From a virus: 38,957 bases of DNA. The notes under the pieces were generated by a model. It made no database searches. It was not told the DNA's origin and saw only the letters and a program-made list of their open reading frames with translations. How positions within the stretch are numbered: the stretch's first letter is position 1; every line of letters starts with the position of its first letter. The translations under genes and the position numbers were made by a program. Location of the stretch: IMG/VR virus record IMGVR_UViG_3300045988_085954. One strand, given 5' to 3'. Shown here piece after piece: positions 1 through 38,957 of the stretch.

Positions 1-65
1 CTGTGACTAGCCCGGCTAGCCTCCCTTTGGTTACCTAAGGACGATGGCAACAACCAGACTTGCTA
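1..65. repeat. 65-bp exact direct terminal repeat (copy 1), identical to 38893-38957
   Basis: Positions 1-65 (ctgtgactagcccggctagcctccc...cttgcta) are repeated exactly at 38893-38957. The window ends inside the repeat, so it may be longer. This fits either a true direct terminal repeat of a T7-like phage or an assembly overlap of a complete genome. Confidence 0.8.
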
Positions 66-14139: not shown

Positions 14140-14150
14140 ACTGTCTCCTT

Positions 14151-14170
14151 TCTATCTTGTGTCTTGCTTA
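14151..14170 (-). promoter_or_regulatory. Variant phage-RNAP promoter upstream of the gp15-like gene
   Basis: Plus strand tctatcttgtgtcttgctta; sense strand TAAGCAAGACACAAGATAGA runs directly into the ribosome-binding site, as at the DNAP-module promoter. Confidence 0.45.
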
Positions 14171-21842: not shown

Positions 21843-22293
21843 GATTTACCACCTTTGCATACGTTGGGTAAGTATCGACATACCCGAATTTCTTATAGCA
21901 ATTTGATACCATTCGAGGATGTCTCTGAAAGAAACACCCTGAGGCAATGAGGGATGCATGATATTCCTTTGCCAACTGATCAAGCATCTTACAGGCTTCG
22001 CGCTGAAGACCATGAATTCCAAGGCAAGCTAATACCGCCACTTCCGACAGGATGACTTTAGGTGTCCACCATCCTCTGTCTACGTCGAAAATCAGGACAC
22101 CACAAAATTTATCACCCTGATAGAACTTCACGACCTTCTCCATCTTGCTAAACTGTATTGCATTCTGAGTTATCCAAGGTACGTCGAGAAATTCTGAGAT
22201 AGCCTTGCTCCCTCTTGTCTCTGCATGATACTTCAAGGATTCTTGTAGTGCCCTCACCTCGGTGGATGTCAATGGGCTTCTGTAGGTTTCCAA
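21829..22293 (-). CDS. Hypothetical protein
   Basis: 154-aa ORF that overlaps the exonuclease stop. No confident family assignment could be made. Confidence 0.35.
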   Translation of the reverse strand: METYRSPLTSTEVRALQESLKYHAETRGSKAISEFLDVPWITQNAIQFSKMEKVVKFYQGDKFCGVLIFDVDRGWWTPKVILSEVAVLACLGIHGLQREACKMLDQLAKEYHASLIASGCFFQRHPRMVSNCYKKFGYVDTYPTYAKVVNHDNQ

Positions 22294-23027
22294 AGTTTCA
22301 CCTGTCCTTCTGCATCAATGTCATCAGCCGTCAGAATCTTTGCGACTCTGGCCTGAGTGATTGCAACATTTTCGGACAGACCTGCTTTTTCGTAGGCTTC
22401 TTTGACAGCATTCCATGAGCAGTCTTTGTCAAGGATGCGCTGTGCGGTAACTTTGCCTACCTTAGGACACCCGGAGTACCCATCGGTTGCATCCCCCATG
22501 AGTGTCTGCATGTAGAAGTGCCGTAAGGAATCCTCCTCACTACTATGCCCATACTCTTTACGGAGGAAGTCATAGTGATAACCCGAAATGCACAGGAGGT
22601 CTTTGTCACCACTAATGATGATGCATTTATCACGATACATTGGTTTGGTAGCAAAGATACCCATACAGTCATCGGCTTCAAGTGTGTCTTTGGTAATGGT
22701 GTCATATTCAGATTTCACCCAAGACACAAGGGCTTTGTACCCTACGGGCTTTCTCTTACCCGCACGGTTTGCCTTGTATGTCGGGAGGATGGAACGTCTG
22801 AAATTGACCGTATCAGAGAAGCAGTATTTGACCTCAAAGGCTCCATGGTATTCGTGGGCATCAAGGGCATCCCTGAGAATCATCTCCATGAGAGATTCAA
22901 AGCGTTCTTTGGCTTCATTGAGATTGACATGGAGTGTCCAGATGTCGTTTCCCCAATCAATTTCCTTCTCCACGGAGGAGCAAGCACGGAAACATACCAT
23001 GTCTCCATCAATCAGAAGGTAAAGCAT
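22269..23027 (-). CDS. 5'-3' exonuclease (gp6-like, FEN family)
   Basis: LPTYKANRAGKRKPVGY matches T7 gp6 DPNYKANRKAVKKPVGY, and GDATDGYSG matches GDITDGYSG. Confidence 0.85.
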   Translation of the reverse strand: MLYLLIDGDMVCFRACSSVEKEIDWGNDIWTLHVNLNEAKERFESLMEMILRDALDAHEYHGAFEVKYCFSDTVNFRRSILPTYKANRAGKRKPVGYKALVSWVKSEYDTITKDTLEADDCMGIFATKPMYRDKCIIISGDKDLLCISGYHYDFLRKEYGHSSEEDSLRHFYMQTLMGDATDGYSGCPKVGKVTAQRILDKDCSWNAVKEAYEKAGLSENVAITQARVAKILTADDIDAEGQVKLWKPTEAH

Positions 23028-23190
23028 CTGTCTTCTCCTTTAACCAATCAATAGCATAGCGACCAAGATAAGCAATACTACGCCCACAATCTTCACAGCG
23101 AAGCTCATATACATCACCATCCAAAGGTACGCAAAGATGGAATGCTGTGCATCCACACTCACATTCCAATTTGAATTCAGGTTTTGACAT
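23008..23190 (-). CDS. Small Zn-ribbon / rubredoxin-like protein (start re-assigned to ATG at 23190)
   Basis: A GAGGAGG site sits 8 nt upstream of the ATG. The 60-aa product carries CECGC...CEDCGR cysteine pairs. Confidence 0.45.
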   Translation of the reverse strand: MSKPEFKLECECGCTAFHLCVPLDGDVYELRCEDCGRSIAYLGRYAIDWLKEKTDALPSD

Positions 23191-23203
23191 ATCTATTCCC
23201 TCC

Positions 23204-23443
23204 TCATGGCCGCACATAGAGACCACAGCGACACGCTTTCATCTCGCGCATATAGCGGCACGGGCAGATGGTGTCTTCTGTATGCGTGGGGAGGCACGGG
23301 CAATATGGAGCACCATACTGCACCTGATTGTTGCCAAGTTTCTCCAAGACACTTGCCACATTGTAGGTCTTAGGATTGACTTTCATACCATACTTGTTGG
23401 CATTCTTCTCCGGCTCATAGGTTTCGTTATAGTCTGGATGCAT
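23204..23443 (-). CDS. Ferredoxin-thioredoxin-reductase catalytic-subunit-like (FtrC-like) 4Fe-4S protein
   Basis: YCPC...ICPCRYMREMKACRCGLY matches the FtrC signature CPC...CPCVPMRERKECHCMLF: six Cys with the CPC / CPC / CxC arrangement, identical 8-residue spacing and conserved MRE..K. The start is taken at ATG 23443; the track's GTG at 23464 is less likely. Confidence 0.55.
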   Translation of the reverse strand: MHPDYNETYEPEKNANKYGMKVNPKTYNVASVLEKLGNNQVQYGAPYCPCLPTHTEDTICPCRYMREMKACRCGLYVRP

Positions 23444-23448
23444 ATAGT

Positions 23449-24030
23449 TCACTCGTAGGAACACCTCTTCTCTTTACATGACTTACAGTTTGGCTTGACA
23501 TTCCCAAAGACCTGAGGACATGCCGCAACAAGTGCCTGATAAATCTGCTGTGCAAGTTCCTGATGTTCTTTACTAGCACGCTTACAAAGACGCTTCGGCA
23601 GGTACTCAAACCATGCGCGGAAATTGCCCGTGATGACGAGTTTGTACTCTGCCGCTTTGGGGAGCATATAGGCGATGTCTTCTTTCTTGCAGACACCTTC
23701 AGCTACCTTAAGGTGATAGACCTGCATGATGTATTTTGTCATGTAGTCAATCATGTCATCACCTGTCTCATAGACTCCATGCAGTTCACTTCCGCGACTG
23801 GACTGAACCGTAGGACTGAAATGACGATGACGGGTAAGCTGTAGTAACGTCGTGATACTACAAGTAATCTCGAAGGTTGCATAGCAATGCTCCAAGACAC
23901 TCAAGTGACCTGCTTCAATGATGTGTTGAATCACAGCATCAGAGGCCTGTTTCTGGTAGCATTGCCCTGCCGCTCTCTTTAAGAGATTCATTGCATCGGG
24001 TGTCATGCTAATCAGTTTTGCTACACTCAT
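23449..24030 (-). CDS. thyX: Flavin-dependent thymidylate synthase ThyX
   Basis: The ThyX signature RHRxxSxxxxSxR is present as TRHRHFSPTVQSSR. Confidence 0.75.
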   Translation of the reverse strand: MSVAKLISMTPDAMNLLKRAAGQCYQKQASDAVIQHIIEAGHLSVLEHCYATFEITCSITTLLQLTRHRHFSPTVQSSRGSELHGVYETGDDMIDYMTKYIMQVYHLKVAEGVCKKEDIAYMLPKAAEYKLVITGNFRAWFEYLPKRLCKRASKEHQELAQQIYQALVAACPQVFGNVKPNCKSCKEKRCSYE

Positions 24031-24245
24031 AAGAAAAGTGTCAACCCCCTGTCTTTCAGATGTCCTTTGATTTTCCCTTTGGGATTGTAGATGGTTGCTG
24101 AAGCATCTGGAAATTGCTTCAGGAACTTCAGCATAGAACCAAAGCTACTGAAGATGACCACATGACACTCATTGTCTTTCTCTGTGGCATCCATCATTAC
24201 AAAGAATCTTGCTCTGTGTCTGAGAGTACGGTAATCAGCGACCAC
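24027..24245 (-). CDS. Hypothetical protein (GTG start in track; true start uncertain)
   Basis: ORF in the gene string with no recognisable motif. Confidence 0.25.
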   Translation of the reverse strand: MVADYRTLRHRARFFVMMDATEKDNECHVVIFSSFGSMLKFLKQFPDASATIYNPKGKIKGHLKDRGLTLFL

Positions 24246-24380
24246 GCTTCTTATCCCTCTCTTCCATGTGCTTCAAGTCAATCGTATATCCGCATTTGCA
24301 ACGGACGGATGTCACAGCTGTGGAATAGGAGCGAAGCAATACCTTGTCGCACCGTGGGCATTTCACCTGTTCTTTAATCA
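24235..24380 (-). CDS. Small Zn-ribbon protein (48 aa, not in the ORF track)
   Basis: RC translation gives MIKEQVKCPRCDKVLLRSYSTAVTSVRCKCGYTIDLKHMEERDKKRGR. An AAAGGA site sits 8 nt upstream of the ATG. Confidence 0.35.
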
Positions 24381-24402
24381 TGTAGCTCATCCTTTCATTT
24401 AC

Positions 24403-25067
24403 TTATTTATTATCTACTGTTCCTGTCCATTGGTCTGCCATAGCTTCAGCAATACCAGGAAAGGTCTTACTACGCCATTTAGCTGTTTCAGGGTCATTCC
24501 AAGCATACTGTTTCCCATTGAAAATAGCTTTCCATATATTTGTTGTCCGTTTCTCCGGAGGACATATATCCGTAGGTTGGAGGTTTGGCAATCCTTTCAA
24601 CCACAAACAGGTTTTTTTTTTACACTCTGTTGAACCAAATTGGTAAGGGTTTATGATCTGATTAGGTTTTCTATATTTTGTACTCATAATGCCTACAGGA
24701 TTCTCAATAGCAATTTTTTTTTTTTTCACAATCAGCATTTACAAACTTCATAAAGAAATCAATAGCTTCTACCTGTAAACTACGAGGTTTCTTTCCTTCC
24801 GTAAACCATCGCTGACCTGCACAGCATAAATGCGTACATGGAGGAAAAGCAATAATCATATCCCACTTAGTGTTAATTTCATGCTCTGTACCATCTGTAG
24901 TCTTAAAGGTGCAATATCCATTCAGTAATGGTAAAACATCCTCCATTATATGCCATTCCTGATGGCCCCCACTACAATCTTGAATATCGCAAGAGTAAGC
25001 CTCATGTCCTCTCTCTCAGAGCAATAGTGACTCTCTGGGATTCTTCACAAGCTACTAGAACACGCAT
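24403..25067 (-). pseudogene. SAM-MTase-like (C5-cytosine-MTase-like) gene split into three reading frames at two simple-sequence repeats
   Basis: Three consecutive minus-strand fragments: MRVLVACEESQRVTIALRERT* (25067-25002), ERGHEAYSCDIQ...IAFPPCTHLCCAG...ADCEKKK (through 24704), and KKIAIENPVG...FPGIAEAMADQW (24738-24403). The frame breaks coincide with G(AG)4 at 25009-25017 and A13 at 24714-24726. Removing one A from the A13 tract fuses the second and third frames exactly, and adding one GA unit fuses the first and second. Confidence 0.5.
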
Positions 25068-25106
25068 TAAAACCCCCTTCTAAAAATAGACAAAAAAAAG
25101 ACTGCC

Positions 25107-27008
25107 TCAGTGACAATCGCACCAATTCTTACCAATGATTCCTTCAGTGTCCAACTGCATACGGAATCCAAAGAACTCCTGCGCGTCACGCATAGCCGCC
25201 TGTGCCTCAGAGACAACAATCTCAGCAATCTCTTTGGTACGACATGCTACCTGAATTTCATCGTGAATCCATGCCATGTAGGCAAAGTCACCATCCCATC
25301 CATGTTTCAGACCACGCTGAATCAGCCGTTCTTCTGTCCTGACAATCCACTTCTTGCACACGAGGGCACCTGCGGATTGCAGGAGCAGATTCAGTGCCGA
25401 ATGTGGACTGCGTACATGCAAAAGTCTCCCATCGAGACCTTTAAGATAATGCCGTTTCCAACGAACGACCTTACCACGGTCAGTTTCAACAATAGCATTC
25501 TGAACGGCATCCCGGAGATTCTTGATAGCAGGTGTCGCTTTCAGGAATTTGCGCTTAATGCGCTTTCCGTCAGTTGCGTCACCACCAATGATTTTGCCAA
25601 TCTTTGCATCTCCTGCACCATATAAGAAGGCGTATATGAAGGTCTTCGCCTGATTTCTTTCAGGCAATCCTGCCGCCTTCTGATTCATGGTGTGGATGTC
25701 TCCATTCAGGATGGTGTGTGCATACTTTCCCTTATCGTATGGTGACATGTAGTGAGCGAGACACCTCAGTTCAAGGCCACAAGCATCAATACCTGCTTGC
25801 CACCAATCCCCTGCACTCCACAAGGCGCGACACTCAGCACCATAAGGTGAGCCTACGTGTGGCACCTGAGCCACGTTAGGAGAACTATGGGTAGCTCTGC
25901 CACTCACAGCACCATTGGGAACCACGCGACCATGAATGCATCCATCATCGGGGTCATAGGCAGAGAGCCACGCATTACTGCCATTGGCAATCTGACCAAG
26001 ACGCTTCTTCAACATCAAGGACTCCTGTATCAGCCCTGTGATTTCTCGTAGTTCCTCAGGGCACGCTGTATCTTCCTTGATGTATTGCATGATGATGTCA
26101 TCCATCTTCAGGCGATAATCAGCCAAGTTTGGATTCTCATCCATGTCTGGGATATCATAGAGGTCTGGGTTGTCTGGGTTGTAGTTGTACATGGTACGAA
26201 AGACATATTCAATCTGCTGTCTGCTGTTAGGATTGAATGTCTTGTACTTCTGAATTGGAACTCCTGCTTTATAGCCAAGACGCTTGTTGTCTCGCTTTGG
26301 CACGAATACCTTATCTGGAATCTCAGGTATCTTTTGGAGGAGCGTGGTCGTAATGATAGCCTGACGTTCCTTCAGTTCCTCAGAGAGCTTCAAGGCTCCC
26401 TCATAGTCGAATTTGAAACCATTGCGTTCCTGCTTCGCCATGAGCCATGCTACCTGATGTTCCAGTTCAATCGCTCTTGAAGAATAAGGCTTTGCGGTCA
26501 GCTTCTCATAGAGTGCTTTCGTGACCCACACATCCTGCTCGTTATAATCAAGCATCTCCGGATTGTAGACCGCCCATGCGTCTTCCTGTTCACCATAGGT
26601 TCCCTTGAGGACACCCAAGCGATACCCCCACGCCATGAGTTTGTGGGATTTATACAGGGTTTTGGGGAGCTTTCCAGACTTCATGAGGCCGAGGTCTATC
26701 GTGTCAATGTTTGAATAAATGAGACGAGCGAGGACAAGCGTGTCCACAACCTGCTCCTGTTGATCATACGAGATGCGAAAAAGATGTGGATAGAGCTTCT
26801 CAAGGGCGGGGATGTCATAGTCAATCACATTATGACCACACAGTTTGCCGCCCTGCGTGATTGTATCTTGAAGCATCTTGACTCCCTCCTCTACATTGGT
26901 GGGGTCAAAGCGATACATCTTTTTCGTCTCTGTATCATAGACACACATGCAATGAAGGACGCTTACTTCCTTCAGAAGACCATTTGTCTCAATATCAAAC
27001 ATCAACAT
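25107..27008 (-). CDS. DNA polymerase, family A (T7 gp5-like)
   Basis: 3'-5' exonuclease motif MLMFDIETNG, polymerase motif A DACGLELR, motif B RNQAKTFIYAFLYG, motif C HDEIQV. GGAGG ribosome-binding site. Confidence 0.95.
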   Translation of the reverse strand: MLMFDIETNGLLKEVSVLHCMCVYDTETKKMYRFDPTNVEEGVKMLQDTITQGGKLCGHNVIDYDIPALEKLYPHLFRISYDQQEQVVDTLVLARLIYSNIDTIDLGLMKSGKLPKTLYKSHKLMAWGYRLGVLKGTYGEQEDAWAVYNPEMLDYNEQDVWVTKALYEKLTAKPYSSRAIELEHQVAWLMAKQERNGFKFDYEGALKLSEELKERQAIITTTLLQKIPEIPDKVFVPKRDNKRLGYKAGVPIQKYKTFNPNSRQQIEYVFRTMYNYNPDNPDLYDIPDMDENPNLADYRLKMDDIIMQYIKEDTACPEELREITGLIQESLMLKKRLGQIANGSNAWLSAYDPDDGCIHGRVVPNGAVSGRATHSSPNVAQVPHVGSPYGAECRALWSAGDWWQAGIDACGLELRCLAHYMSPYDKGKYAHTILNGDIHTMNQKAAGLPERNQAKTFIYAFLYGAGDAKIGKIIGGDATDGKRIKRKFLKATPAIKNLRDAVQNAIVETDRGKVVRWKRHYLKGLDGRLLHVRSPHSALNLLLQSAGALVCKKWIVRTEERLIQRGLKHGWDGDFAYMAWIHDEIQVACRTKEIAEIVVSEAQAAMRDAQEFFGFRMQLDTEGIIGKNWCDCH

Positions 27009-27275: not shown

Positions 27276-27297
27276 TCCCTGTCTTGTGTCTCACTTA
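27276..27297 (-). promoter_or_regulatory. Phage-RNAP promoter upstream of the small coiled-coil gene and the DNAP gene
   Basis: Plus strand tccctgtcttgtgtctcacttaa; the sense strand runs directly into the GGAGG ribosome-binding site. Confidence 0.55.
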
Positions 27298-29105
27298 ATA
27301 TCCGGCTTTGCGTAGTAACGCTTTGCGGCCTCTTTCTGCCGAGCGTCTGAGAAGTTCGTGATACGCTTCAGATAGCCTATGACACGTGTGCCATAGTCTA
27401 CATTCTCGCTACCACATTTCTTGCATGCTTTGCGCGTCACGGGGTCAATCGTTCCACAATCATTGCAGATGGTACAAAGGACATTGGTTGTCCAGTACGG
27501 TACGCCATTCTTGCTACAGAGCTTGAAGAGCGTTTTTGCCTGTTCGTAGGACGGAAGCTGTTCAAGGTTCAGATGAAGTGCTGAACCACCGTCAAGGGAA
27601 TCCGTGACCTCATGTGCATACATCTCAATCTTGTCAAGAACGGAAAGGTTGGTGTCTTCTACCCGATAGAAGTAAGAGTTATAGCAATCACGCTTGACAC
27701 CTGAAAAGCCATCTTCCTTATCCCACTTCGCATTTTTGACACCGAGATTTTCAGCGGGTACAAGTTCCGTGTTGAAGCGACAACCATAACGCTGAAGAGC
27801 TTTCTTGTTCTCATCCTTGAAGATACCAAGGACATTAGACACCCATTTCTTGTAGGTGTCATTGTTACTAATCTCGTAGCCATATCTTTCAGCCGCCTCT
27901 ACGAGACCATTCACGCCAATGGTAAGGAACTGCTTGTCGATGTCCATGAACCCGGCAGTATAGGCAGGGAGAAGCCCTGCTTTGATGTATTCTTTATAGA
28001 CGGCTTTAGAAGCCATCAGGTATTTATGGACATCTTGAATCTGCTCACGGAGTGTGTTTTCAAAGTCATCATGTCCACTGATTGCGAGGCGTGCCAGACG
28101 GTTCATGTTGATGGTAATGACCTGCGCTGAACCTGTCACGACACCACCTGCCCCGAGGCTGTAGCTGAAGGTGTTGTCTGCAAGCTCGTTACGGAGGCGA
28201 CAACACGAAGCAAGGGAATCTACGGAATCCGACATGTAGACAAAGAAGCTGTGTCCTTTGCTCATCTGCTCTGCACAGAAGTCTACGAACTGTGGGTCGA
28301 TGAATCCACCTTTACCGTCCGTCAGGATACTTGCGGTAAGCACTGGATACGTCAACAGTTCTTTGTGTCGCTCCTTGCGGAACCACTCCATGAAGAACTT
28401 CTGGAGTTCCATAAGGCTATCCATGTCAGGCTGAGTACCATCTGGATAGTAGAAGTTGCCAAACATCTCCTGCATGTACGGGCGGTCGAAGACCGAGATG
28501 TTCCAGAAGACACTCTGGTCACCCCGAGCAGAAGCAGGCTGATTCAAGCCGTAGACAACACCCTGAAGTTCCTGCTTGATTTCCTTTGCGTTGGTCTTCA
28601 GGTAGTCTTTGCCATACTGCTTGCGTGCGAAGTAGTCGAAGTAGTGAAGGAATTCCACGGTTGCTACTGCACCTGCGAAGTTGGAGGCCACCTGATAAAC
28701 AAGGTTGACAAAGGAACCACAGAAGGACTGAAGGTTCGTCGGGGCTTTCGAGACACCTCCCATGCATTTTGTACCTTCGAGCAGAAAGGGGTATAGCGTG
28801 ATAGAAGCACAGTACGGCTTCAGGGATGTCTCATCATGCACGTAAATAAAGTGTTCAGCGAGGTCGAGGAGGTAGTTGTTCCCTACCTCCCACCCGAACA
28901 TTTCTCGCACCTTATCCCGCACCATCGCCCGATTGAGTGTGATGGTATACGGTTTGTACATCTCTGCTTCCAGAGTTGCCAATGTCTTGCGCGTGACATT
29001 GGCATTGGCATCCACTTCGGAACCACTGGAAGCATTACTTGCCTCTGTATAAGAGCGGATGAAGTCGAGGCGGTCATTCATCTGACTAGTTGATAATGCT
29101 TTCAT
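27291..29105 (-). CDS. nrdD: Anaerobic ribonucleoside-triphosphate reductase NrdD (class III RNR)
   Basis: C-terminal Zn-ribbon CxxC...CxxC followed by the glycyl-radical motif RVIGYL. The ATG start at 29105 overlaps the nrdG stop as ATGA. Confidence 0.9.
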   Translation of the reverse strand: MKALSTSQMNDRLDFIRSYTEASNASSGSEVDANANVTRKTLATLEAEMYKPYTITLNRAMVRDKVREMFGWEVGNNYLLDLAEHFIYVHDETSLKPYCASITLYPFLLEGTKCMGGVSKAPTNLQSFCGSFVNLVYQVASNFAGAVATVEFLHYFDYFARKQYGKDYLKTNAKEIKQELQGVVYGLNQPASARGDQSVFWNISVFDRPYMQEMFGNFYYPDGTQPDMDSLMELQKFFMEWFRKERHKELLTYPVLTASILTDGKGGFIDPQFVDFCAEQMSKGHSFFVYMSDSVDSLASCCRLRNELADNTFSYSLGAGGVVTGSAQVITINMNRLARLAISGHDDFENTLREQIQDVHKYLMASKAVYKEYIKAGLLPAYTAGFMDIDKQFLTIGVNGLVEAAERYGYEISNNDTYKKWVSNVLGIFKDENKKALQRYGCRFNTELVPAENLGVKNAKWDKEDGFSGVKRDCYNSYFYRVEDTNLSVLDKIEMYAHEVTDSLDGGSALHLNLEQLPSYEQAKTLFKLCSKNGVPYWTTNVLCTICNDCGTIDPVTRKACKKCGSENVDYGTRVIGYLKRITNFSDARQKEAAKRYYAKPDIK

Positions 29106-29623
29106 GTTTGAAACAAATGCGTGCAATCTACGAAACGATTTTTCATCCTAACCAATTGGTATTTGTCGTAGATTACATCTGTCTCCTTCCTGTAAAATCT
29201 TTGGTTTGTTGTCGGGGAGGAAAGACCCCCAAGCTCTGCTTTGTAGCTCCCTGTCTTCAGCCATGTGATACCAGAGTGTTCTGCTATGTATGTGTTTGTC
29301 TCTTCATCATCAAGGCCACTATAGAGACACGTCGGGGCAATCTCTGAGAGATCGTCGAGTAATTTCAGCAAGTCTGGTGTGCTCATCTTGTTGCATGTGC
29401 CTCCCATCAGGACGATAGCATTCGCCCCGGACTCTATGGCATTCTCTGCCCCTCTCAAGACATCCTCAAGACTCGTAGGAGATTCCACTTCTTCCCATAG
29501 CTCTTTGCTGTGACAGCCTTTGCACCTCTGGGTACATGAGCCAAGCTCGATGAAATAAGCAATCTTGTCTGGTACCTCATTCAAGGTAATACCTGTGGAA
29601 ACAACAGGAACTAGAACTGACAA
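29102..29623 (-). CDS. nrdG: Anaerobic RNR activating protein NrdG (radical SAM); TTG start
   Basis: Radical-SAM motif CTQRCKGC. A GGAGG site sits 7 nt upstream of the TTG at 29623, inside the primase-helicase 3' end. The ATG-extended ORF to 29737 would overlap the primase gene by 127 nt, and 173 aa is the typical NrdG size. Confidence 0.8.
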   Translation of the reverse strand: MSVLVPVVSTGITLNEVPDKIAYFIELGSCTQRCKGCHSKELWEEVESPTSLEDVLRGAENAIESGANAIVLMGGTCNKMSTPDLLKLLDDLSEIAPTCLYSGLDDEETNTYIAEHSGITWLKTGSYKAELGGLSSPTTNQRFYRKETDVIYDKYQLVRMKNRFVDCTHLFQT

Positions 29624-31260
29624 TTTGAGTCCTCCTTTTCTGTCTTGATTTCTAAGGGGTCTACGTCCTCTATGGTGTTGGTCGATTTGTTGAACCTCAG
29701 GTACCCTGCGAGACCCGTGTTGCCTGTGAAGCGACATTTGAGTACCCTAAGTTTCAAGGTGTTCTTCATGTCTTCATCGTCGGCCTGTTGGTTTCTCTCA
29801 AGTGCCAAAATGGTGTCGGGTATCTGCTTGAGTGTACCTGAGCCACGGAGGTCATCAAGGGAAATCGTGCCCCCCTGTTCAAATGGAACTGTCTTTGTGT
29901 CCCCCTTGCGGAGGTGAGACACCACGACAATCCCTGCTCCTGTCTCTTCTACGAGTGCACGGAGCTTTGTCATGAGCATGTCAATGGCTTTGCGCTCATT
30001 GACGCTTGATTCATCGAGACCACTGACCGCTATGGATACGTGATCAAAGATGACAAAATCACAGCCTTCACCCGTGATAAGAAAGCGTATCTTCTCAAGG
30101 AGATTGTTTCCTTCAATCGACCCAAAGTGGTCATAAAGACAAAAGCCCCCATCACCAAATACGGCATCATAGACAGGCTTTAGTTCCTCTTTGTCTATGG
30201 TGTTCCATAAGAGGTGAAGGGGTTTTGCTACAGCAATGGACAGGAGGTCTCGAAGTGTCTTGTTCTTGTTCTCTTCGAGCATGACCATGCCCACTTTCAT
30301 ATTATCTTGCATCTCCAGTTTGAAAGCGATTTCTCGTGCCATCGTGGATTTGCCAATACCTGTACCTGCTGTGAGCAGAAGCATTTCGCCTTTGCGGATT
30401 CCCATTGTCATCTTTGTCAGGTCTTCTGCCCACGGGAAAGAATAAGAAGGAATCTCTGCCTCCTGTGAGAAGAACTCTTCCTTCAGGTCTTTGGCATTGA
30501 TGATACCATCTGGACGATATTCCCTAGCTTGCCAGATTGCACGGATGACCTCATCGGCCTTGCCATTCAAAAGGCACTCATTTGGGTCTTTCATTGGCAG
30601 GGTAGCAATCTTCAGCTTGTGGAGTGGCAGGATACCAGAGACAGACTTCACGGCCTCCTGACCCGCTTCATCCATGTCGAACATGACGATGACTTCATCA
30701 AACCCTGAGAGCCAATCGGCTTGAGCTTTGAAGACATCTTTTGCACTACGACAACCAAAAGGGATGGATACCACAGGGTATTTGTTGTCTTGCAACTGCG
30801 ATACCGTGAGACAATCAATCTCACCTTCTGTGATAATCAGTTTCTTGCCTGTCGAAAACAAATGCTGACCAAAGAAGATGTTGTCTTTCTTGCCACGAAC
30901 AATGAAGTTCTTCTCGCGATCTCGCGTCTTCTGAAAGATGACACGACCATCCTTGCGATAATCAGCGACTTGAATGGGTTGCCCGAAGTCGTTCTTTGAC
31001 AAGTGATAACCATACTTACGACAGGTGTCAGAGGTTATGCCTCTAGCCTTTAGTGGTCGAATCTCCATTTCAGATTCTGGAATGACAGGTAAATGCTTAG
31101 AGGACACAGACCTCCCTCCTTCTTCTTCTTTTTCATCTAGCCATGTAAACTTCTCGCAGACAAAACAAAATTTGTGGTCAGTATAGATGGTCGCTCCATC
31201 ACTACTGCCACAAAACTCACACGGTACATGGGCTTTGACAATCTCTGACACATAAATCAC
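29611..31260 (-). CDS. DNA primase-helicase (gp4-like)
   Basis: N-terminal Zn-finger CEFCGSS...CFVCEKF, TOPRIM region, and DnaB-type helicase with Walker A GTGIGKST. Confidence 0.9.
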   Translation of the reverse strand: MIYVSEIVKAHVPCEFCGSSDGATIYTDHKFCFVCEKFTWLDEKEEEGGRSVSSKHLPVIPESEMEIRPLKARGITSDTCRKYGYHLSKNDFGQPIQVADYRKDGRVIFQKTRDREKNFIVRGKKDNIFFGQHLFSTGKKLIITEGEIDCLTVSQLQDNKYPVVSIPFGCRSAKDVFKAQADWLSGFDEVIVMFDMDEAGQEAVKSVSGILPLHKLKIATLPMKDPNECLLNGKADEVIRAIWQAREYRPDGIINAKDLKEEFFSQEAEIPSYSFPWAEDLTKMTMGIRKGEMLLLTAGTGIGKSTMAREIAFKLEMQDNMKVGMVMLEENKNKTLRDLLSIAVAKPLHLLWNTIDKEELKPVYDAVFGDGGFCLYDHFGSIEGNNLLEKIRFLITGEGCDFVIFDHVSIAVSGLDESSVNERKAIDMLMTKLRALVEETGAGIVVVSHLRKGDTKTVPFEQGGTISLDDLRGSGTLKQIPDTILALERNQQADDEDMKNTLKLRVLKCRFTGNTGLAGYLRFNKSTNTIEDVDPLEIKTEKEDSNCQF

Positions 31261-32697: not shown

Positions 32698-32722
32698 TTC
32701 TCTGTCTTGTGTCCCACCTGTG
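32698..32722 (-). promoter_or_regulatory. Phage-RNAP promoter upstream of the SSB gene
   Basis: Plus strand cttctctgtcttgtgtcccacctg, with a one-base variant (cccac) in the core. Confidence 0.5.
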
Positions 32723-32729
32723 CCAGAGG

Positions 32730-33164
32730 TTATTCTCTGGGGTTGACTTTCTCACCTTTAGCGACCTTATCGAGCCATTCGGCGTACCTCAGAATCTTTG
32801 TGGTTTCCTTCGCGACATCATCTTTCTTGCCAAGACGGCAAGCATATTTGATGATATTGCCTCGCAAGAATCCCATGAAGGCTTCCGCAGACATTGCGGA
32901 CTGCATCAACTCAATCGGTTGTACGTCACCCTGATAGTGGGCATCATAATGCTCTGACATCGTCGCTTGCATCAATTCGCCTCCCGACAAAACCAGAATT
33001 AAAGGCATGTCTGAATCAGGGTCATCGAATGCCACCCGGTATTTCCAATTCATGCTCTCCGGGTCAAAGGTACGCACTCGAATAACGCCAAGACGCTTCT
33101 CTGTGCCATCGTGATACTGGATGGTATCACCCACCTTGAATCTTGCTTCTCCCATTACAATCAC
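32730..33164 (-). CDS. Conserved phage protein (DUF3310-like C-terminal motif?)
   Basis: HYQGDVQPIELMQ...FLRGNIIKYACRLGKKDD...KILRYAEWL resembles the HY..IEPI...GNIIKY..R..KG motif. The ATGA overlap couples it to the dUTPase gene. Confidence 0.35.
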   Translation of the reverse strand: MIVMGEARFKVGDTIQYHDGTEKRLGVIRVRTFDPESMNWKYRVAFDDPDSDMPLILVLSGGELMQATMSEHYDAHYQGDVQPIELMQSAMSAEAFMGFLRGNIIKYACRLGKKDDVAKETTKILRYAEWLDKVAKGEKVNPRE

Positions 33165-33652
33165 TCCTTACCTGTGGAACCAAGGCCACCTTCGCCTCTT
33201 TTGGTCTTGCTAAGTTCCTTTACCTCACTAAAGGATGTCGGAACATTCTTTTCAATCATCACTTGTGCAATGCGAACACCTGCCTTGATACTGACAGGCT
33301 CACGCGCAGGATTTTCGACCAAGAGTTTCAGTTCACCCCGATAATCGGAATCAATGATTGCTACCTGATTCGCCAACCGCAGGTGACTATTGAGACCCAC
33401 AGAAGACCTCAGAAACACTTTCATGTGGTATCCTTCAGGAATCTCAAAGGCTAATCCCGTGGGAACGACGGTTGCCTTGTCGCTTGCGTTTAAGGTATGC
33501 AGATAGATGTCCTCAAGGGTACGGATGTCGAAACAGGCGGCACCATCGGTCTTGCGTTCTGGAAGACAAGCACGCTCATCCAGACGCTTAACTTTCACGA
33601 CAACATCAGCCGTAGTGCTATGGGTTATTTTAGGTTTTCTTGTAGTTGCCAC
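33161..33652 (-). CDS. dut: dUTP diphosphatase
   Basis: dUTPase motifs are present: AIIDSDYRGEL, GVRIAQ and a C-terminal RGEGGLGSTG. Confidence 0.85.
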   Translation of the reverse strand: MATTRKPKITHSTTADVVVKVKRLDERACLPERKTDGAACFDIRTLEDIYLHTLNASDKATVVPTGLAFEIPEGYHMKVFLRSSVGLNSHLRLANQVAIIDSDYRGELKLLVENPAREPVSIKAGVRIAQVMIEKNVPTSFSEVKELSKTKRGEGGLGSTGKE

Positions 33653-33991: not shown

Positions 33992-36634
33992 TTATGCAAA
34001 ACAGAAATCTGATTTTGCCACTAAATCAAGGTCGAGAGTGCCAAACTTTGGTAACTCTGGTACTTCATCGAGATCATCAATAAGATAGCTCACGGACTCT
34101 AGGAATCCTGCGAGGTGATTCTGGTCTTTATAAAGACCAATAAATTCATCTCTGATAGTCTTGTAGAGACTCCCGGCATGGGCGGCATCTGTTCCGAAAC
34201 TGTCATGTATCATCATAAAGTTTCGATTGCCCTTCAGGTGCTCCGAGACCACTACCCTCTGTAGATGGCTTGCATCCATGCTATGAATGAAGTTGGGCGC
34301 TATGCCGTTCTGCTGTCTCCTATTGTCAATCTCATCGGTCTCCTCTTGATTGTAGAAGCGTACCTGAGAGCCATCAAAGCGCAACTTTATGCACTCTTGT
34401 CGCATCTTCATGTAGTTCTGCTGAACTAAGAAGCCGTTCGGCGTTGTCCATGAAACTACCTCTCCAGATTGGCAGATAAGTCTTGCAACCTTCTGCAACC
34501 ATTCCATACCTTCAACAGCCTTGACAACAGTTGTCGCTACAGCTTCCCATATCAATTTAGCCATGTAGACAGCGGCCTGATTAGTATTCAAGAATGGACT
34601 GTTGTCTGGATGGTCAAGGACATACGGGTGGATGATGTCGGTCAGCAAATTTTCCTTGAATCCATACTGCTTTGACCCATACGCCAAGGTCATTACTGAC
34701 CGCTTGCAGACCTTGCGGGTAATGCCATCCTTGCCAAACTTGATACGATTGAAGGCTACCCAATTCTGTGCGAGTGTCTTCGTTCCATACTTGTAGGAAT
34801 CGGAACCTTCTTTTTTCTCGTCCTCTGTCCCCGTCTGGACATCCTTGAGGAGCTGAACATTTACCTTATCAGCTACGATTGAATAGATGTCTTGCACCTT
34901 GTCCGAGGGTACGAGGTTTACGGCAAAACCACCTACCTCATCCCGGAGGAGGGCTGAGAAGTGTTGCAGGCCGGAGCATGTACCATCAAACGCCAAGGGC
35001 AGATTCGACATAAATCCCTTGACAGAACCACTGTTTTCTGCCTTGTAGTCATTTAGGCGTTTCCATTCGTGACAGAAGGACAAAAATTCCATCGGGTAAT
35101 CACCTTTAGACACCTCATACCACCATGTGTAACCTAGAGGGTCTTCTGCACTTGCGATAATATCGACTGTATGCTCCTTGACCCATGCTACACGGTCGGC
35201 AAATGCTATCTTGTCGTTACCTGCAAGGTTTGCGCCGTGGATAGCCATCCACTTGTCATCCCCTTCAGCCAATGGCGAAGGATTTGCGAACAGGAGCAGG
35301 GATTTCTGGATGTCATCCCCTTGCGGACTCAGCGCGGTCGGGATAGGATAGCAACGACCACGATAATCTACGTTCCACGGAAAGTAAATTTTGTCATACT
35401 CGCTGAACTTTTCGGCCACCTTGAGTGCCAAAAGGCATCTAAGGGCTTTGCTCTTGCGTGCTTCTTCCTGCTTGTAGAGGCCTACGGCTTTCTTTTTGTG
35501 CTCCTTCACTTGCTCTTCAGGCGCATCCTCTGGGAGGCGTGGGAGTGTCTGATACGGTTCCGTCCTAGGAACGCCACCGAGTTCACCACCAGACGCATAG
35601 ATTTCCTTGAGTGTCTGCAAGATAAATGGATTGATGATAAAAGGCGTATCCTGCATGGCATTGAGAGCGTCATAAACTACTCCAAGGTCAATCGCTGACA
35701 GTTTCTTATTGTAGGCTTTCAGAAACTTTGTTTTTGTCTGTACCTTCAGCCGGATGAGCTGAGTGCCTAGCACGGACTCGCCATAATAGCCTCCATCATG
35801 TGGGTCAGTCCAATGGCGCGGCGGAATAATAGTTGGCATGTAGCGGACTGCATTCGCAATCATGTGGGACTCGTTGCTTTCCCATGTAGCCTTAAACCAA
35901 TCCGTAGCATCCACAGCTTTGATATGCTTTGTCCCCCGGCCTGTGCTTACCTCCCTTTCACGAATGACATAGTAATCGGAGCCTGCAATGAGCATTTCAA
36001 GCACCTTTGCGCCTAGGACTTCTACCTGCTGATTTGACCAAGCGAGACCTACATATCCTTCCTTGTTCATGCGGTTTGTTGCATAGGCCACACGATAAGA
36101 CGAACGTACACGCTGTTCTATGCCTTTGTCCATTGACTTTTTCAGCCATTTGACATCTGTATCCTTGTTGACCTCTTCCCATTGATAGAAGCGTTCAATA
36201 TCCGCTTCTCGCTTGATTTGCATCCCAATCAGCATAGCCACATTGGATAGGGTGGTCTGTGTTGTATCATGCGACATCAACACGGCATCCATCGCCTTGC
36301 TGTGTCCGGCGAGGACTAGGAGGTCTTCCAAAGCCTCCTCTTTTTCCCGATAGATGACTAAAAGTTCTTTCATTGGCAGGAGCCAAGCGCCTTGCGTGGT
36401 CTTCTTAGGGTGCTTTGCGTCCTCTAGGAGAGCGTGGATATTCTTGCGGCATGTCTCCCATGAGTGCTTCATGAGCTTGCCTGCTAGGTGCCCTTCGCCG
36501 CCTTCTCCCTCGCGCTTTGCCTTGTCAAGAGCTTCCTTCAGGTGCTCCTCTGCTTCCTGCTTTGCCTCCGCTTCTAGGAGGAGCTCCTGTGTGTAGAGCC
36601 CTCCGTATAGCTTTTCATATTCTTCAAATTTCAT
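33992..36634 (-). CDS. Single-subunit DNA-directed RNA polymerase (T7 gp1-like)
   Basis: 880 aa. Motif A DGTCSGLQHFSA, motif C IHDSFGT and a C-terminal ...DFCFA match T7 RNAP. A TGGAGG ribosome-binding site is present. Confidence 0.95.
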   Translation of the reverse strand: MKFEEYEKLYGGLYTQELLLEAEAKQEAEEHLKEALDKAKREGEGGEGHLAGKLMKHSWETCRKNIHALLEDAKHPKKTTQGAWLLPMKELLVIYREKEEALEDLLVLAGHSKAMDAVLMSHDTTQTTLSNVAMLIGMQIKREADIERFYQWEEVNKDTDVKWLKKSMDKGIEQRVRSSYRVAYATNRMNKEGYVGLAWSNQQVEVLGAKVLEMLIAGSDYYVIREREVSTGRGTKHIKAVDATDWFKATWESNESHMIANAVRYMPTIIPPRHWTDPHDGGYYGESVLGTQLIRLKVQTKTKFLKAYNKKLSAIDLGVVYDALNAMQDTPFIINPFILQTLKEIYASGGELGGVPRTEPYQTLPRLPEDAPEEQVKEHKKKAVGLYKQEEARKSKALRCLLALKVAEKFSEYDKIYFPWNVDYRGRCYPIPTALSPQGDDIQKSLLLFANPSPLAEGDDKWMAIHGANLAGNDKIAFADRVAWVKEHTVDIIASAEDPLGYTWWYEVSKGDYPMEFLSFCHEWKRLNDYKAENSGSVKGFMSNLPLAFDGTCSGLQHFSALLRDEVGGFAVNLVPSDKVQDIYSIVADKVNVQLLKDVQTGTEDEKKEGSDSYKYGTKTLAQNWVAFNRIKFGKDGITRKVCKRSVMTLAYGSKQYGFKENLLTDIIHPYVLDHPDNSPFLNTNQAAVYMAKLIWEAVATTVVKAVEGMEWLQKVARLICQSGEVVSWTTPNGFLVQQNYMKMRQECIKLRFDGSQVRFYNQEETDEIDNRRQQNGIAPNFIHSMDASHLQRVVVSEHLKGNRNFMMIHDSFGTDAAHAGSLYKTIRDEFIGLYKDQNHLAGFLESVSYLIDDLDEVPELPKFGTLDLDLVAKSDFCFA

Positions 36635-36654
36635 ATACTTGTGCCTCCATCTGG

Positions 36655-36687
36655 TTTTTCTCTATCTTGTGTCTCACCTAAATTTGT
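36655..36687 (-). promoter_or_regulatory. Phage-RNAP promoter immediately upstream of the RNAP gene (autoregulatory), with an inverted core copy facing the plus-strand gene
   Basis: Plus strand ttttctctatcttgtgtctcacctaaatttg. Its inverted copy gtagacacaagg lies at 36695-36706, so cttgtgtct and agacacaag form a 9-bp inverted repeat with a 22-nt spacer. Confidence 0.55.
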
Positions 36688-36751
36688 ATTACATGTAGAC
36701 ACAAGGCTAACTATACAATTTGTAAAACATGTGGTAGCATGTTATAGGGTG

Positions 36752-38892: not shown

Positions 38893-38957
38893 CTGTGACT
38901 AGCCCGGCTAGCCTCCCTTTGGTTACCTAAGGACGATGGCAACAACCAGACTTGCTA
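38893..38957. repeat. 65-bp exact direct terminal repeat (copy 2)
   Basis: Identical to 1-65. Confidence 0.8.

What the first reader, a model, noticed from the sequence alone, without database searches (positions are those of the whole stretch)
23008..24030. Phage-encoded FtrC-like 4Fe-4S protein plus a Zn-ribbon/rubredoxin-like protein next to ThyX, in a genome that also carries NrdD/NrdG: a candidate anaerobic redox-supply module for dNTP synthesis
The ORF 23204-23443 carries the six-Cys signature of the ferredoxin:thioredoxin-reductase catalytic subunit, CPC..CPCRYMREMKACRCGLY, which uses a 4Fe-4S cluster and a redox-active disulfide. It is flanked by a GAGGAGG-initiated 60-aa CxC/CxxCG zinc-ribbon or rubredoxin-like protein and by ThyX. 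The same genome encodes the class III RNR pair NrdD/NrdG and a dUTPase. In anaerobes, FTR-like enzymes pass electrons from ferredoxin or flavodoxin to thioredoxin, and some NrdD subclasses are thioredoxin-dependent. T7 DNAP also recruits host thioredoxin. A phage-borne FTR-like disulfide reductase tied to nucleotide metabolism would be a new auxiliary function in a T7-like phage.
Basis: partly seen in the sequence, partly recalled or inferred. Interest (0 to 1): 0.8.

Follow-up and report, generated by a model that had tools for sequence, protein, structure and literature searches.

The report
Phage ferredoxin-type reductase paired with anaerobic RNR
A T7-like phage of strictly anaerobic gut bacteria carries a tiny iron-sulfur disulfide reductase that most likely feeds electrons to the phage's own oxygen-sensitive enzyme for making DNA building blocks. 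This pairing is already characterised in methanogens but has not, as far as I could find, been described for phages.

Summary
ORF 23204-23443/23464 (- strand) is a true member of the ferredoxin:thioredoxin-reductase catalytic-chain family. It scores 47 bits against Pfam PF02943 (cut-off 22), all six Cys are invariant, and the AF2 model (pLDDT 94) matches only FTRc/FDR structures.

The phage NrdD has the SCCR finger-loop motif of the redoxin-dependent class and resembles T. maritima NrdD. All 35 informative FTR-anchored viral loci carry NrdD, and 37 of 39 NrdD-anchored loci carry the FTR-like gene. In unrelated phages the gene abuts or overlaps the nrdD stop codon. Clostridium phage c-st has glutaredoxin-nrdG-nrdD-FTR-like-dUTPase. 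This mirrors the characterised M. barkeri NrdD/NrdH/ferredoxin:disulfide-reductase system.

ThyX adjacency is only gene order. The 60-aa neighbour is a lineage-restricted four-Cys zinc ribbon with no rubredoxin signal. The DNA polymerase lacks most of T7's thioredoxin-binding loop.

Phage FTR-like genes are already annotated in crAss001 gp5 and c-st CST077. crAss001-type phages have the gene without this class of NrdD, so the coupling is not universal.

Verdict: a minimal viral variant (CRC instead of CHC, no redoxin gene) of a known kind; moderately interesting.

The parts
23204..23464 (-). FTR-catalytic-chain-like [4Fe-4S]/disulfide protein. It is 86 aa from the GTG at 23464, or 79 aa from the ATG at 23443. 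The motif is CPC-x9-CPC-x8-CRC.
   Evidence: Pfam PF02943 at 47.4 bits against GA 22. Six Cys are invariant across 28 sequences. PDB phmmer finds FTRc 2PVG/1DJ7 at about 1e-4. The AF2 model has pLDDT 94.3, and the 13 Foldseek matches at E<=0.001 are all FTRc, FDR or Grx-FDR chains.
27291..29126 (-). Class III ribonucleotide reductase NrdD of the redoxin-dependent (SCCR, NrdDh/NrdD2-type) class. This is the inferred client of the FTR-like protein.
   Evidence: Pfam NRDD 9e-105. TIGR02827 at 840 bits against a cut-off of 568. The best PDB match is T. maritima NrdD 4COI at E=1.6e-75; no T4-type NrdD is found. The SCCR motif is at residues 307-310, Y105-C106 aligns with Tm Y124-C125, and a RVIGY glycyl-radical motif and C-terminal Cys cluster are present.
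29102..29737 (-). NrdG activase, a radical-SAM enzyme with CxxxCxxC. The true start is probably internal to this ORF.
   Evidence: TIGR02826 at E=2.6e-27, which is below the model's cut-off. Weak Pfam Fer4_12 and Radical_SAM hits. The CTQRCKGC motif is visible.
23008..23190 (-). 60-aa four-Cys (CxC...CxxC) zinc-ribbon-like protein, translationally coupled to the FTR-like gene. Its function is unknown.
   Evidence: The GAGGAGGG RBS overlaps the FTR stop codon. C10, C12, C32 and C35 are invariant. Only 7 homologue clusters at 72% identity or more were found. Small four-Cys proteins occupy the same position in L001-L029. AF2 pLDDT is 77.7, and Foldseek gives no significant hit; the top match is an Elf1 zinc ribbon at E=0.24, and no rubredoxin appears among the 50 best matches listed.
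23449..24030 (-). ThyX, the flavin-dependent thymidylate synthase, immediately upstream of the FTR-like gene.
   Evidence: Pfam Thy1 7.7e-37. TIGR02170 at 107 bits against a cut-off of 87.9.
22269..23027 (-). 5'-3' exonuclease (T7 gp6-like). Its start overlaps the end of the 60-aa ORF.
   Evidence: Pfam 5_3_exonuc_N 9e-12; sequence.
33161..33652 (-). dUTPase.
   Evidence: Pfam dUTPase 7.3e-24.
25107..27008 (-). T7-type DNA polymerase lacking most of the thioredoxin-binding loop.
   Evidence: phmmer against T7 gp5 6N7W gives E=2.4e-173. Query residues 258-301 stand opposite T7 residues 289-363.
27279..27300 (-). Candidate phage promoter, one of 7 copies of GTGAGACACAAGA on the coding strand. 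It heads the unit DNAP...ThyX-FTR-Cys60-Exo.
   Evidence: 7 matches against 0.11 expected by chance, all in the same orientation. That these sites lie between gene blocks is my reading of the coordinates; promoter function is inferred.

Best explanation
The gene encodes a minimal (79-86 aa), single-subunit ferredoxin:disulfide reductase of the FTR-catalytic-chain family.

**Proposed mechanism, by analogy with FTR/FDR.** Four of the six invariant Cys (C48, C60, C62, C71) hold a [4Fe-4S] cluster next to a redox-active disulfide (C50-C73). Reduced host ferredoxin or flavodoxin delivers two successive electrons. The resulting dithiol then reduces either a host thioredoxin, glutaredoxin or NrdH-type redoxin, or the NrdD cysteines directly.

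**Proposed client.** The client is the phage's own class III ribonucleotide reductase. It belongs to the SCCR (NrdD2/NrdDh) class, which needs a protein dithiol rather than formate. The phage would therefore bring both the anaerobic RNR and its link to the host's low-potential electron pool. That would keep dNTP synthesis going in a ferredoxin-based strict anaerobe, probably a member of the Negativicutes.

**What is shown.** Family membership, conservation of the Cys motif, the predicted fold, the NrdD class, and the genomic association.

**What is inferred.** Cluster binding, ferredoxin as the donor, the identity of the intermediate redoxin, and the flow of electrons to NrdD.
For: **Family membership**
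- Pfam PF02943 scores above its cut-off.
- All six Cys align to the Synechocystis FTRc cluster and disulfide cysteines.
- These Cys are invariant in 28 diverse homologues.
- The AF2 model (pLDDT 94.3) matches only FTRc, M. acetivorans FDR (4TPU) and the D. psychrophila Grx-FDR fusion (7PWE), with TMq 0.67-0.78.

**NrdD class**
- The SCCR motif, Y-C, the glycyl-radical motif and the Zn cysteines are present, and the T. maritima NrdD match has E=1.6e-75.
- PMC4493059 states that SCCR occurs only in the NrdDh group, that mutating either Cys kills activity, and that the thioredoxin-using N. bacilliformis enzyme belongs to this group.
- PMC9176816 Table 1 lists NrdD2 as thioredoxin-dependent and NrdD3 as NrdH-dependent.

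**Association**
- 35 of 35 informative FTR-anchored viral loci carry NrdD.
- 37 of 39 informative NrdD-anchored loci carry the FTR-like gene.
- In non-T7 phages the gene abuts or overlaps the nrdD stop codon: L030/L064 has nrdG-nrdD-ftr with the ftr start at 9992 and the nrdD end at 9995, and L031 and L097 show the same arrangement.
- Clostridium phages c-st, D-1873 and the D phage have nrdD followed by an FTR-like ORF. In c-st the order is glutaredoxin-nrdG-nrdD-FTR-like-dUTPase.

**Precedent**
- M. barkeri FDR reduces NrdH, which reduces the class III RNR. I know this from the title of Wei et al. 2015 (PMID 26536144) and from citations of it in PMC9176816, PMC5704485 and PMC6262447.

**Operon structure**
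- thyX, ftr, cys60 and exo overlap or are separated by only a few nucleotides. They sit in the DNA-metabolism block downstream of nrdD.
Against: - In this phage the gene is not adjacent to nrdD. It lies about 3.8 kb downstream, in the next putative transcription unit.
- Much of the co-occurrence within the T7-like clade may simply be vertical inheritance.
- The window encodes no thioredoxin, glutaredoxin or NrdH that Pfam can detect, so the electron path to NrdD is incomplete.
- The catalytic His of the CHC motif is replaced by an invariant Arg, and the CPC-CPC loop is 9 residues instead of 16. Activity is therefore unproven.
- crAss001-type phages carry an FTR-like gene, while NrdD hits in Crassvirales fall in different genera.
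- Vibrio, Cronobacter and Aeromonas phages have the same NrdD class with no detectable FTR-like gene. L087 has an SCCR NrdD with no FTR-like gene within 10 kb.
- There are no biochemical data.
Confidence: 0.6

Rival explanations
1. The protein is a general thiol-redox auxiliary gene. It uses host ferredoxin to keep host thioredoxin or other disulfides reduced, for example for oxidative-stress protection or for many Trx-dependent enzymes. NrdD would be only one beneficiary among many, or not a beneficiary at all.
For: crAss001 gp5 and its relatives (39% identical, six Cys conserved) sit among tRNA genes in phages that lack this class of NrdD, and were described as an auxiliary metabolic gene (PMC6235969). 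The window encodes no dedicated redoxin. The gene is not adjacent to nrdD in the T7-like clade.
Against: It does not explain the abutting or overlapping nrdD-ftr arrangement in at least three unrelated phage lineages. It also does not explain the 35/35 and 37/39 co-occurrence.
Confidence: 0.2
2. The protein serves ThyX, its immediate upstream neighbour. It might re-reduce the ThyX flavin or protect it, which would make this a thymidylate module rather than an RNR module.
For: thyX and ftr overlap or are 5 nt apart in the window and in most close relatives. Zn-ribbon-FTR fusion proteins also directly follow thyX.
Against: By established enzymology, ThyX chemistry uses FAD reduced by NAD(P)H and involves no disulfide. 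ThyX is absent from 6 of the 35 informative loci, including L037 and L039-L043, yet these keep the FTR-like gene and NrdD. In L030 the FTR-like gene overlaps nrdD, while the intein-containing thyX starts about 550 bp further downstream, after another ORF. In c-st the neighbours are nrdD and dUTPase.
Confidence: 0.05
3. The protein is a degenerate, non-catalytic Cys-rich metal-binding protein. It would act as a structural or regulatory factor, or as a Zn or Fe-S scaffold. It retains the FTRc fold but has lost disulfide-reductase activity because the catalytic His is replaced by Arg and the C-terminal part of the domain is missing.
For: The His-to-Arg change is invariant in the T7-like clade. 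The Pfam match covers only profile positions 10-87 of 106. The loop is shortened.
Against: All six cluster and disulfide Cys, and both CPC prolines, are strictly conserved over sequences as little as 33-40% identical. This argues for selection on the redox site. The c-st and crAss001 relatives keep CHC. Arg could supply the positive charge or proton-donor role, but that is inference.
Confidence: 0.1
4. The protein supplies reduced thioredoxin as the processivity factor for the T7-type DNA polymerase.
Against: The polymerase lacks about 45 residues of the T7 thioredoxin-binding loop. From my own knowledge, T7 gp5 binding of thioredoxin does not require redox turnover.
Confidence: 0.02

Closest known systems
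Methanosarcina ferredoxin:disulfide reductase (FDR) working with NrdH and the class III RNR (M. barkeri; Wei et al. 2015, PMID 26536144); M. acetivorans FDR structure 4TPU
   Same: It has an FTRc-like Fe-S/disulfide domain with the six Cys. It is genomically coupled to a redoxin-dependent NrdD and NrdG. The proposed electron path is ferredoxin to disulfide reductase to the RNR. 4TPU is among the only significant fold matches.
   Different: The phage protein is about half the size and has no fused rubredoxin domain. It has CRC instead of CHC. The window has no NrdH/glutaredoxin gene, although phage c-st has one. The carrier is viral and the hosts are bacterial.
[quoted passage not shown]
   Same: Same Pfam family. 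The six Cys align, and the fold matches with TMq 0.74-0.78.
   Different: No variable-subunit gene was found. The CPC-CPC spacer is 9 residues instead of 16. His86 is replaced by Arg. The C-terminal roughly 20-30 residues are absent. There is no photosynthetic context.
Phage FTR-like genes already in GenBank: crAss001 gp5 and relatives ('putative ferredoxin-thioredoxin reductase'), and Clostridium phage c-st CST077 ('weakly similar to FTR catalytic chain')
   Same: These are small (63-65 aa) phage-encoded FTRc-like proteins with the six Cys. The c-st copy directly follows nrdD.
   Different: They are 33-39% identical to the window protein and keep CHC. crAss001-type phages lack this class of NrdD. 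c-st additionally encodes a glutaredoxin. None of them is in a T7-like genome.
Desulfotalea psychrophila glutaredoxin/FDR fusion (PDB 7PWE)
   Same: It contains an FDR domain with the same fold. The fusion shows that FDR domains work with a Grx-type redoxin.
   Different: The redoxin is fused in that protein. Here there is no redoxin in the protein or in the genome.

Membership tests
FTR catalytic chain family (Pfam PF02943 FeThRed_B) | Profile match above the curated gathering score | tested here: met
   47.4 bits against 22, E=2.2e-12. All 48 hits of the single-sequence search also carry PF02943, except one 54-aa fragment.
FTR catalytic chain family (Pfam PF02943 FeThRed_B) | Six Cys in three pairs (CPC...CPC...CxC) that ligate the [4Fe-4S] cluster and form the adjacent disulfide | tested here: met
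   C48, C50, C60, C62, C71 and C73 align with the Synechocystis FTRc cysteines. They are invariant in 28 sequences.
FTR catalytic chain family (Pfam PF02943 FeThRed_B) | Canonical spacing CPC-x16-CPC-x8-CHC with the catalytic His | tested here: not met
   The spacing is x9/x8 and the third motif is CRC. The Arg is invariant in the T7-like clade; His is kept in c-st and crAss001.
FTR catalytic chain family (Pfam PF02943 FeThRed_B) | FTRc fold | tested here: met
   AF2 pLDDT is 94.3. The 13 Foldseek hits at E<=0.001 are all FTRc, FDR or Grx-FDR, with TMq 0.67-0.78.
Plant-type heterodimeric FTR | Partner variable subunit (FTRv) | tested here: not met
   No window ORF scanned with Pfam hits an FTR variable-chain family. 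A few small ORFs were not scanned.
FTR/FDR enzymes | Binds a [4Fe-4S] cluster and reduces disulfides using reduced ferredoxin | not testable with these tools
   This needs protein purification, UV-vis/EPR spectroscopy and activity assays.
Methanosarcina-type FDR | C-terminal rubredoxin domain fused to the FTRc-like domain | tested here: not met
   The protein ends 6 residues after the CRC motif. The next gene is a four-Cys zinc ribbon with no rubredoxin match in Pfam or among the Foldseek hits listed.
FDR-NrdH-NrdD (NrdD3-type) reductant module | Genomic association of the FDR gene with nrdD/nrdG | tested here: met
   35 of 35 and 37 of 39 loci. Direct adjacency is seen in L030, L031, L097 and phages c-st and D-1873.
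FDR-NrdH-NrdD (NrdD3-type) reductant module | A dedicated NrdH/glutaredoxin-like redoxin gene | tested here: not met
   No thioredoxin-fold hit in the window. One is present in phage c-st as CST074.
Redoxin-dependent class III RNR (NrdDh / NrdD2-type) | SCCR motif before the finger loop, the conserved reductive Cys (Tm C125), a glycyl-radical motif and a Zn-Cys site | tested here: met
   SCCR is at residues 307-310. Y105-C106 aligns with Tm Y124-C125. TRVIGYL aligns with the Tm glycyl-radical loop. Cys551, 554, 557, 568 and 571 are present. The criterion comes from PMC4493059.
Redoxin-dependent class III RNR (NrdDh / NrdD2-type) | Turnover supported by a thioredoxin-type protein and not by formate | not testable with these tools
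   This needs an anaerobic enzyme assay.
Rubredoxin (for the 60-aa neighbour) | Rubredoxin profile or fold with two CxxCG knuckles about 29 residues apart | tested here: not met
   No Pfam rubredoxin hit. The conserved Cys pattern is CxC-x19-CxxC. The Foldseek top hit is an Elf1 zinc ribbon at E=0.24, and no rubredoxin appears among the 50 best matches listed.

The most novel reading that the evidence does not exclude
The minimal CRC-type FTR-like protein works without any thioredoxin-fold intermediary. It would take electrons from host ferredoxin or flavodoxin and reduce the SCCR cysteines of the phage NrdD directly. In this reading the small four-Cys zinc-ribbon module is its docking or electron-entry partner, making a 'split FDR'. 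That module is encoded immediately downstream in this clade, fused to the N-terminus in P0080-type proteins, and is analogous to the rubredoxin domain of archaeal FDR. The result would be the smallest known self-contained reductant system for a ribonucleotide reductase.
Probability: 0.15. Interest if true: 0.7.

Novelty: new variant of a known kind. Interest (0 to 1): 0.5.

Why it matters
Class III RNRs that use protein dithiols instead of formate were recognised only in 2014-2015, and how they are re-reduced in most anaerobes is still poorly mapped. This finding gives a compact, phage-borne NrdD/NrdG plus FTR-like set that recurs in a large clade of T7-like phages and prophages of gut Negativicutes and in several unrelated phages. 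It predicts that phages of ferredoxin-based anaerobes bring their own electron link for dNTP synthesis. It reassigns the 'auxiliary metabolic' FTR-like genes of some phages to nucleotide metabolism. It also offers a very small (about 80 aa), naturally His-to-Arg-substituted FTRc domain for testing the catalytic role of that residue, and for testing whether an RNR can be reduced without a thioredoxin. The pieces are known and the biochemistry is untested, so this is an incremental advance rather than a surprise.

Tried and rejected
- **Close relatives among cultured phages.** Megablast of 22000-26000 and tblastn of the FTR-like protein at E<=1e-5 against INPHARED phages found nothing. Only relaxing to E<=10 revealed the crAss001 and c-st relatives.
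- **PHROGs.** It gave only a weak hit to an unannotated family, phrog_38239 at E=8e-4.
- **NCBIfam.** It gave only a sub-threshold FtrB selenoprotein hit.
- **Rubredoxin idea for the 60-aa protein.** Rejected. Pfam, AF2 and Foldseek give no rubredoxin signal.
- **Homology between the 60-aa protein and the N-terminal Zn-ribbon domain of the FTR fusions.** Not detectable; hhalign probability is 1.9%.
- **ThyX-partner idea.** Rejected on co-occurrence.
- **DNA polymerase/thioredoxin idea.** Rejected because the binding loop is missing.
- **Cellular context.** The genome-contig scan returned only three loci, in Pectinatus and Phascolarctobacterium. The Pectinatus locus is a T7-like phage region by gene content, and the best Phascolarctobacterium-like family members sit in T7-like regions of very large contigs. 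I therefore could not sample truly cellular nrdD-FTR pairs.
- **Papers.** Wei 2014, Wei 2015 and Prakash 2018 are not held in the library. Their content is cited second-hand.
- **Model geometry.** Model coordinates are not exposed, so Cys-Cys distances in the AF2 model could not be measured.
Full report
**1. What is in the window.**

The window is a complete genome of a T7-like (Autographiviridae-type) phage. Its first and last 65 nt are identical, so the unique length is 38,892 bp.

All recognisable genes lie on the - strand:
- single-subunit RNA polymerase, 33992-36634
- dUTPase, 33161-33652
- DUF3310 protein, SSB and endonuclease I
- T7-type primase/helicase, 29611-31260
- NrdG, 29102-29737
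- NrdD, 27291-29126
- DNA polymerase, 25107-27008
- a split DNA methyltransferase
- two small ORFs
- ThyX, 23449-24030
- the FTR-like ORF
- a 60-aa Cys-rich ORF
- 5'-3' exonuclease, 22269-23027
- portal, scaffold, capsid, tube, nozzle, internal virion proteins, tail fibre, lysis genes and terminase

A 13-mer, TCTTGTGTCTCAC on the + strand, occurs 7 times against 0.11 expected by chance. All copies have one orientation and, by their coordinates, lie between gene blocks. It looks like the phage promoter. One copy at 27282-27294 heads the block DNAP...ThyX-FTR-Cys60-Exo. The copy before it, at 32705, heads SSB...primase-NrdG-NrdD.

**2.

The ORF ending at 23204 carries CPC-x9-CPC-x8-CRC.
- It matches Pfam PF02943 (FTR catalytic beta chain) at 47.4 bits against a cut-off of 22, E=2.2e-12.
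- phmmer against PDB sequences finds only FTR catalytic chains (2PVG, 1DJ7, 7BZK), the D. psychrophila Grx/FDR fusion 7PWE and M. acetivorans FDR 4TPU. All six Cys align to the Synechocystis cluster and disulfide cysteines.
- In alignments of 25-28 homologues down to 33% identity, the six Cys are invariant.
- An AF2 model built on 24 sequences has pLDDT 94.3. Its 13 Foldseek matches in the PDB at E<=0.001 are all FTRc, FDR or Grx-FDR, with TMq 0.67-0.78.

It departs from canonical FTRc in four ways:
- The spacer is 9 residues instead of 16.
- The catalytic His of CHC is an invariant Arg in this clade.
- The domain ends six residues after the last Cys.
- No variable-subunit gene was found.

The likely start is the GTG at 23464. 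Homologues start MFIRVNY... at that position, which makes an 86-aa protein that overlaps the ThyX stop. The FTR stop codon is embedded in GAGGAGGG, the RBS of the 60-aa ORF. That ORF in turn overlaps the exonuclease start. The four genes are therefore tightly packed and very likely co-translated.

**3. The partner is NrdD, not ThyX.**

The phage NrdD scores 840 bits on TIGR02827. Its best solved relative is T. maritima NrdD at E=1.6e-75, and no T4-type NrdD is found.

It carries the SCCR motif at residues 307-310 and the conserved Y-C that aligns with Tm Y124-C125. It also has the glycyl-radical loop and the C-terminal Zn cysteines. According to PMC4493059:
- SCCR is found only in the NrdDh group.
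- Both Cys are essential.
- The thioredoxin-using N. bacilliformis enzyme is an NrdDh.

PMC9176816 summarises the subclasses as NrdD1 = formate, NrdD2 = thioredoxin and NrdD3 = NrdH-like redoxin. This RNR is therefore expected to need a protein dithiol.

Genomic association:
- **Viral contigs anchored on the FTR-like protein.** All 35 loci that reach far enough upstream contain NrdD. 31 also show NrdG, 29 show ThyX and only 8 show a recognisable Cys60.
- **Viral contigs anchored on NrdD.** 37 of 39 informative loci contain an FTR-like ORF by HMM.

Most of these are T7-like relatives, so vertical inheritance inflates the counts. The independent evidence comes from other phage types:
- In a 94-kb contig (L030/L064), in L031 and in L097, none of which shows T7 hallmark genes in the fetched flanks, the FTR-like ORF overlaps or abuts the nrdD stop codon. 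The order is nrdG-nrdD-ftr.
- In Clostridium botulinum phages c-st, D-1873 and the D phage, whose NrdD is only 29% identical, a six-Cys FTR-like ORF directly follows nrdD.
- In c-st the order is glutaredoxin (CST074), NrdG (CST075), NrdD (CST076), FTR-like (CST077, annotated 'weakly similar to FTR catalytic chain [M. mazei]') and dUTPase.

This is the same parts list as the M. barkeri class III RNR, NrdH and ferredoxin:disulfide reductase system. I could not read Wei et al. 2015 (PMID 26536144). I rely on its title and on how PMC9176816, PMC5704485 and PMC6262447 cite it.

**4. Most likely mechanism.**

By homology with FTR/FDR, which is established knowledge, four Cys bind a [4Fe-4S] cluster next to the C50-C73 disulfide. 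Two one-electron donations from reduced ferredoxin or flavodoxin open the disulfide. The dithiol then reduces a redoxin or a target disulfide. I infer that the ultimate target is the phage NrdD.

No thioredoxin-fold protein is detectable in the window. The intermediate must therefore be a host Trx, Grx or NrdH, or there is none.

The only organism-attributed relatives are in Pectinatus and Phascolarctobacterium (Negativicutes). They sit in T7-like phage regions, some inside contigs of 200-950 kb. This points to strictly anaerobic, ferredoxin-rich hosts.

Phages of facultative anaerobes (Vibrio, Cronobacter, Aeromonas) carry the same NrdD class without an FTR-like gene. That is consistent with reliance on the host NADPH-thioredoxin system, but this is inference.

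**5. What does not fit.**

- crAss001-type phages carry an FTR-like gene (gp5, CHC type, among tRNA genes) but no NrdD of this class. Other crAss genera carry the NrdD but show no FTR-like hit. The coupling is therefore not universal, and a more general thiol-redox role remains possible.
- L087 has an SCCR NrdD and no FTR-like gene within 10 kb.
- The His-to-Arg change leaves activity unproven.

**6. The neighbours.**

ThyX is genuine, but its adjacency is only gene order. Some FTR+NrdD loci lack ThyX, and ThyX chemistry needs no dithiol.

The 60-aa protein:
- It has four invariant Cys, CxC-x19-CxxC.
- It has only 7 close homologue clusters.
- Its AF2 model is moderate, pLDDT 77.7.
- It has no significant structural match. 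The best is an Elf1 zinc ribbon at E=0.24, and no rubredoxin is among the matches listed.

A small four-Cys protein occupies the same slot in L001-L029. More distant relatives have a DNA ligase there, or nothing.

In another subclade a different four-Cys zinc-ribbon domain is fused to the N-terminus of the FTR-like domain. These are P0080, P0098, P0115, P0119 and P0127, and in the one contig where the upstream gene carries a Pfam hit it is ThyX. The two four-Cys modules are not detectably homologous. The recurrence is suggestive, especially given the rubredoxin domain of archaeal FDR, but it is not evidence of partnership.

The DNA polymerase aligns with T7 gp5 throughout, except that about 45 residues of the thioredoxin-binding loop are missing. 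The T7/thioredoxin argument is therefore irrelevant.

**7. Novelty and verdict.**

The protein family, the FDR-to-class-III-RNR pathway, and the presence of FTR-like ORFs in phages (c-st annotation; crAss001 gp5 in PMC6235969) are all known.

I found no paper connecting phage FTR-like genes to phage NrdD. PMC6235969 treats gp5 as unrelated to replication.

What this locus adds:
- a widespread, minimal, CRC-type viral variant that travels with an SCCR-type NrdD/NrdG;
- a clear, testable prediction about how these phages power anaerobic dNTP synthesis.

I rate it a new variant of a known kind, with interest about 0.5.

Noticed in passing
window 1-65 and 38893-38957: An identical 65-nt direct repeat sits at both ends of the window. 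The window is therefore a complete phage genome of 38,892 bp, either a circular-assembly overlap or T7-style terminal repeats.
   Followed up: partly
window 1057, 18955, 27282, 32705, 33709, 33903, 36665 (+ strand coordinates): Seven same-orientation copies of TCTTGTGTCTCAC (coding-strand GTGAGACACAAGA, within a ~22-28-nt conserved block) lie between gene blocks, against 0.11 expected by chance. These are candidate phage RNA-polymerase promoters. A weaker eighth copy is near 14146-14164.
   Followed up: partly
window 24403-24946 (-): A DNA methyltransferase (phrog_757) is split into two overlapping ORFs of 80 and 111 aa. It is either a frameshifted or pseudogenised gene, or a programmed frameshift. 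The near-identical contig L002 has both parts, while L001 lacks the gene.
   Followed up: no
L101-L108 (contigs of 55-510 kb), L045/L053 (Pectinatus frisingensis, 100-kb contig), L054 (Phascolarctobacterium MAG, 468-kb contig): T7-like phage gene sets, running from primase/helicase-NrdD-DNAP through portal-capsid-nozzle, are embedded in very large contigs and occur in hundreds of assemblies. This suggests integrated T7-like prophages in Negativicutes. No integrase was identified in the window itself.
   Followed up: partly
P0080, P0098, P0115, P0119, P0127; loci L109, L110: Natural fusion proteins of 127-139 aa have an N-terminal CxxC...CPxCG zinc-ribbon domain and a C-terminal CRC-type FTR-like domain. 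In L109 the upstream gene is ThyX. The N-domain is not detectably homologous to the window's 60-aa protein.
   Followed up: partly
window 23040-23162 (-), and the equivalent position in L006-L029: An alternative-frame ORF ends at the exonuclease start and encodes a hydrophobic tail (...LFILGYFLCGALVVLLCG; in the window ...VVLLILVAMLLIG). The tail is conserved across relatives. It could be a tiny membrane peptide or a by-product of conserved nucleotide sequence.
   Followed up: no
L030 10740-12368; L096 and L097 NrdD regions: In the 94-kb phage, ThyX is 542 aa and appears to carry a large insertion, likely an intein. In L096, L097, L089 and the Desulfovibrio phages, NrdD is interrupted or matches in several pieces, consistent with inteins or introns.
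   Followed up: no
window 36641-37372 (+): This is the only sizeable + strand ORF (243 aa). It has weak ribbon-helix-helix/CopG-like hits and lies upstream of the RNA polymerase gene, overlapping a promoter-like motif. It may be spurious, or an early regulator encoded on the opposite strand.
   Followed up: no
window 25107-27008 (-): The T7-type DNA polymerase lacks about 45 residues corresponding to T7 gp5 289-334, which is most of the thioredoxin-binding loop. This polymerase probably does not use thioredoxin as a processivity factor.
   Followed up: partly
phage records MT774389 (cr116_1), MT774390, MT774387, KJ003983 versus MH675552 (crAss001), MT774378, MT774388, MT774391: Within Crassvirales, the SCCR-class NrdD and the FTR-like gene are carried by different genera. 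They never appeared together among the hits I saw.
   Followed up: partly
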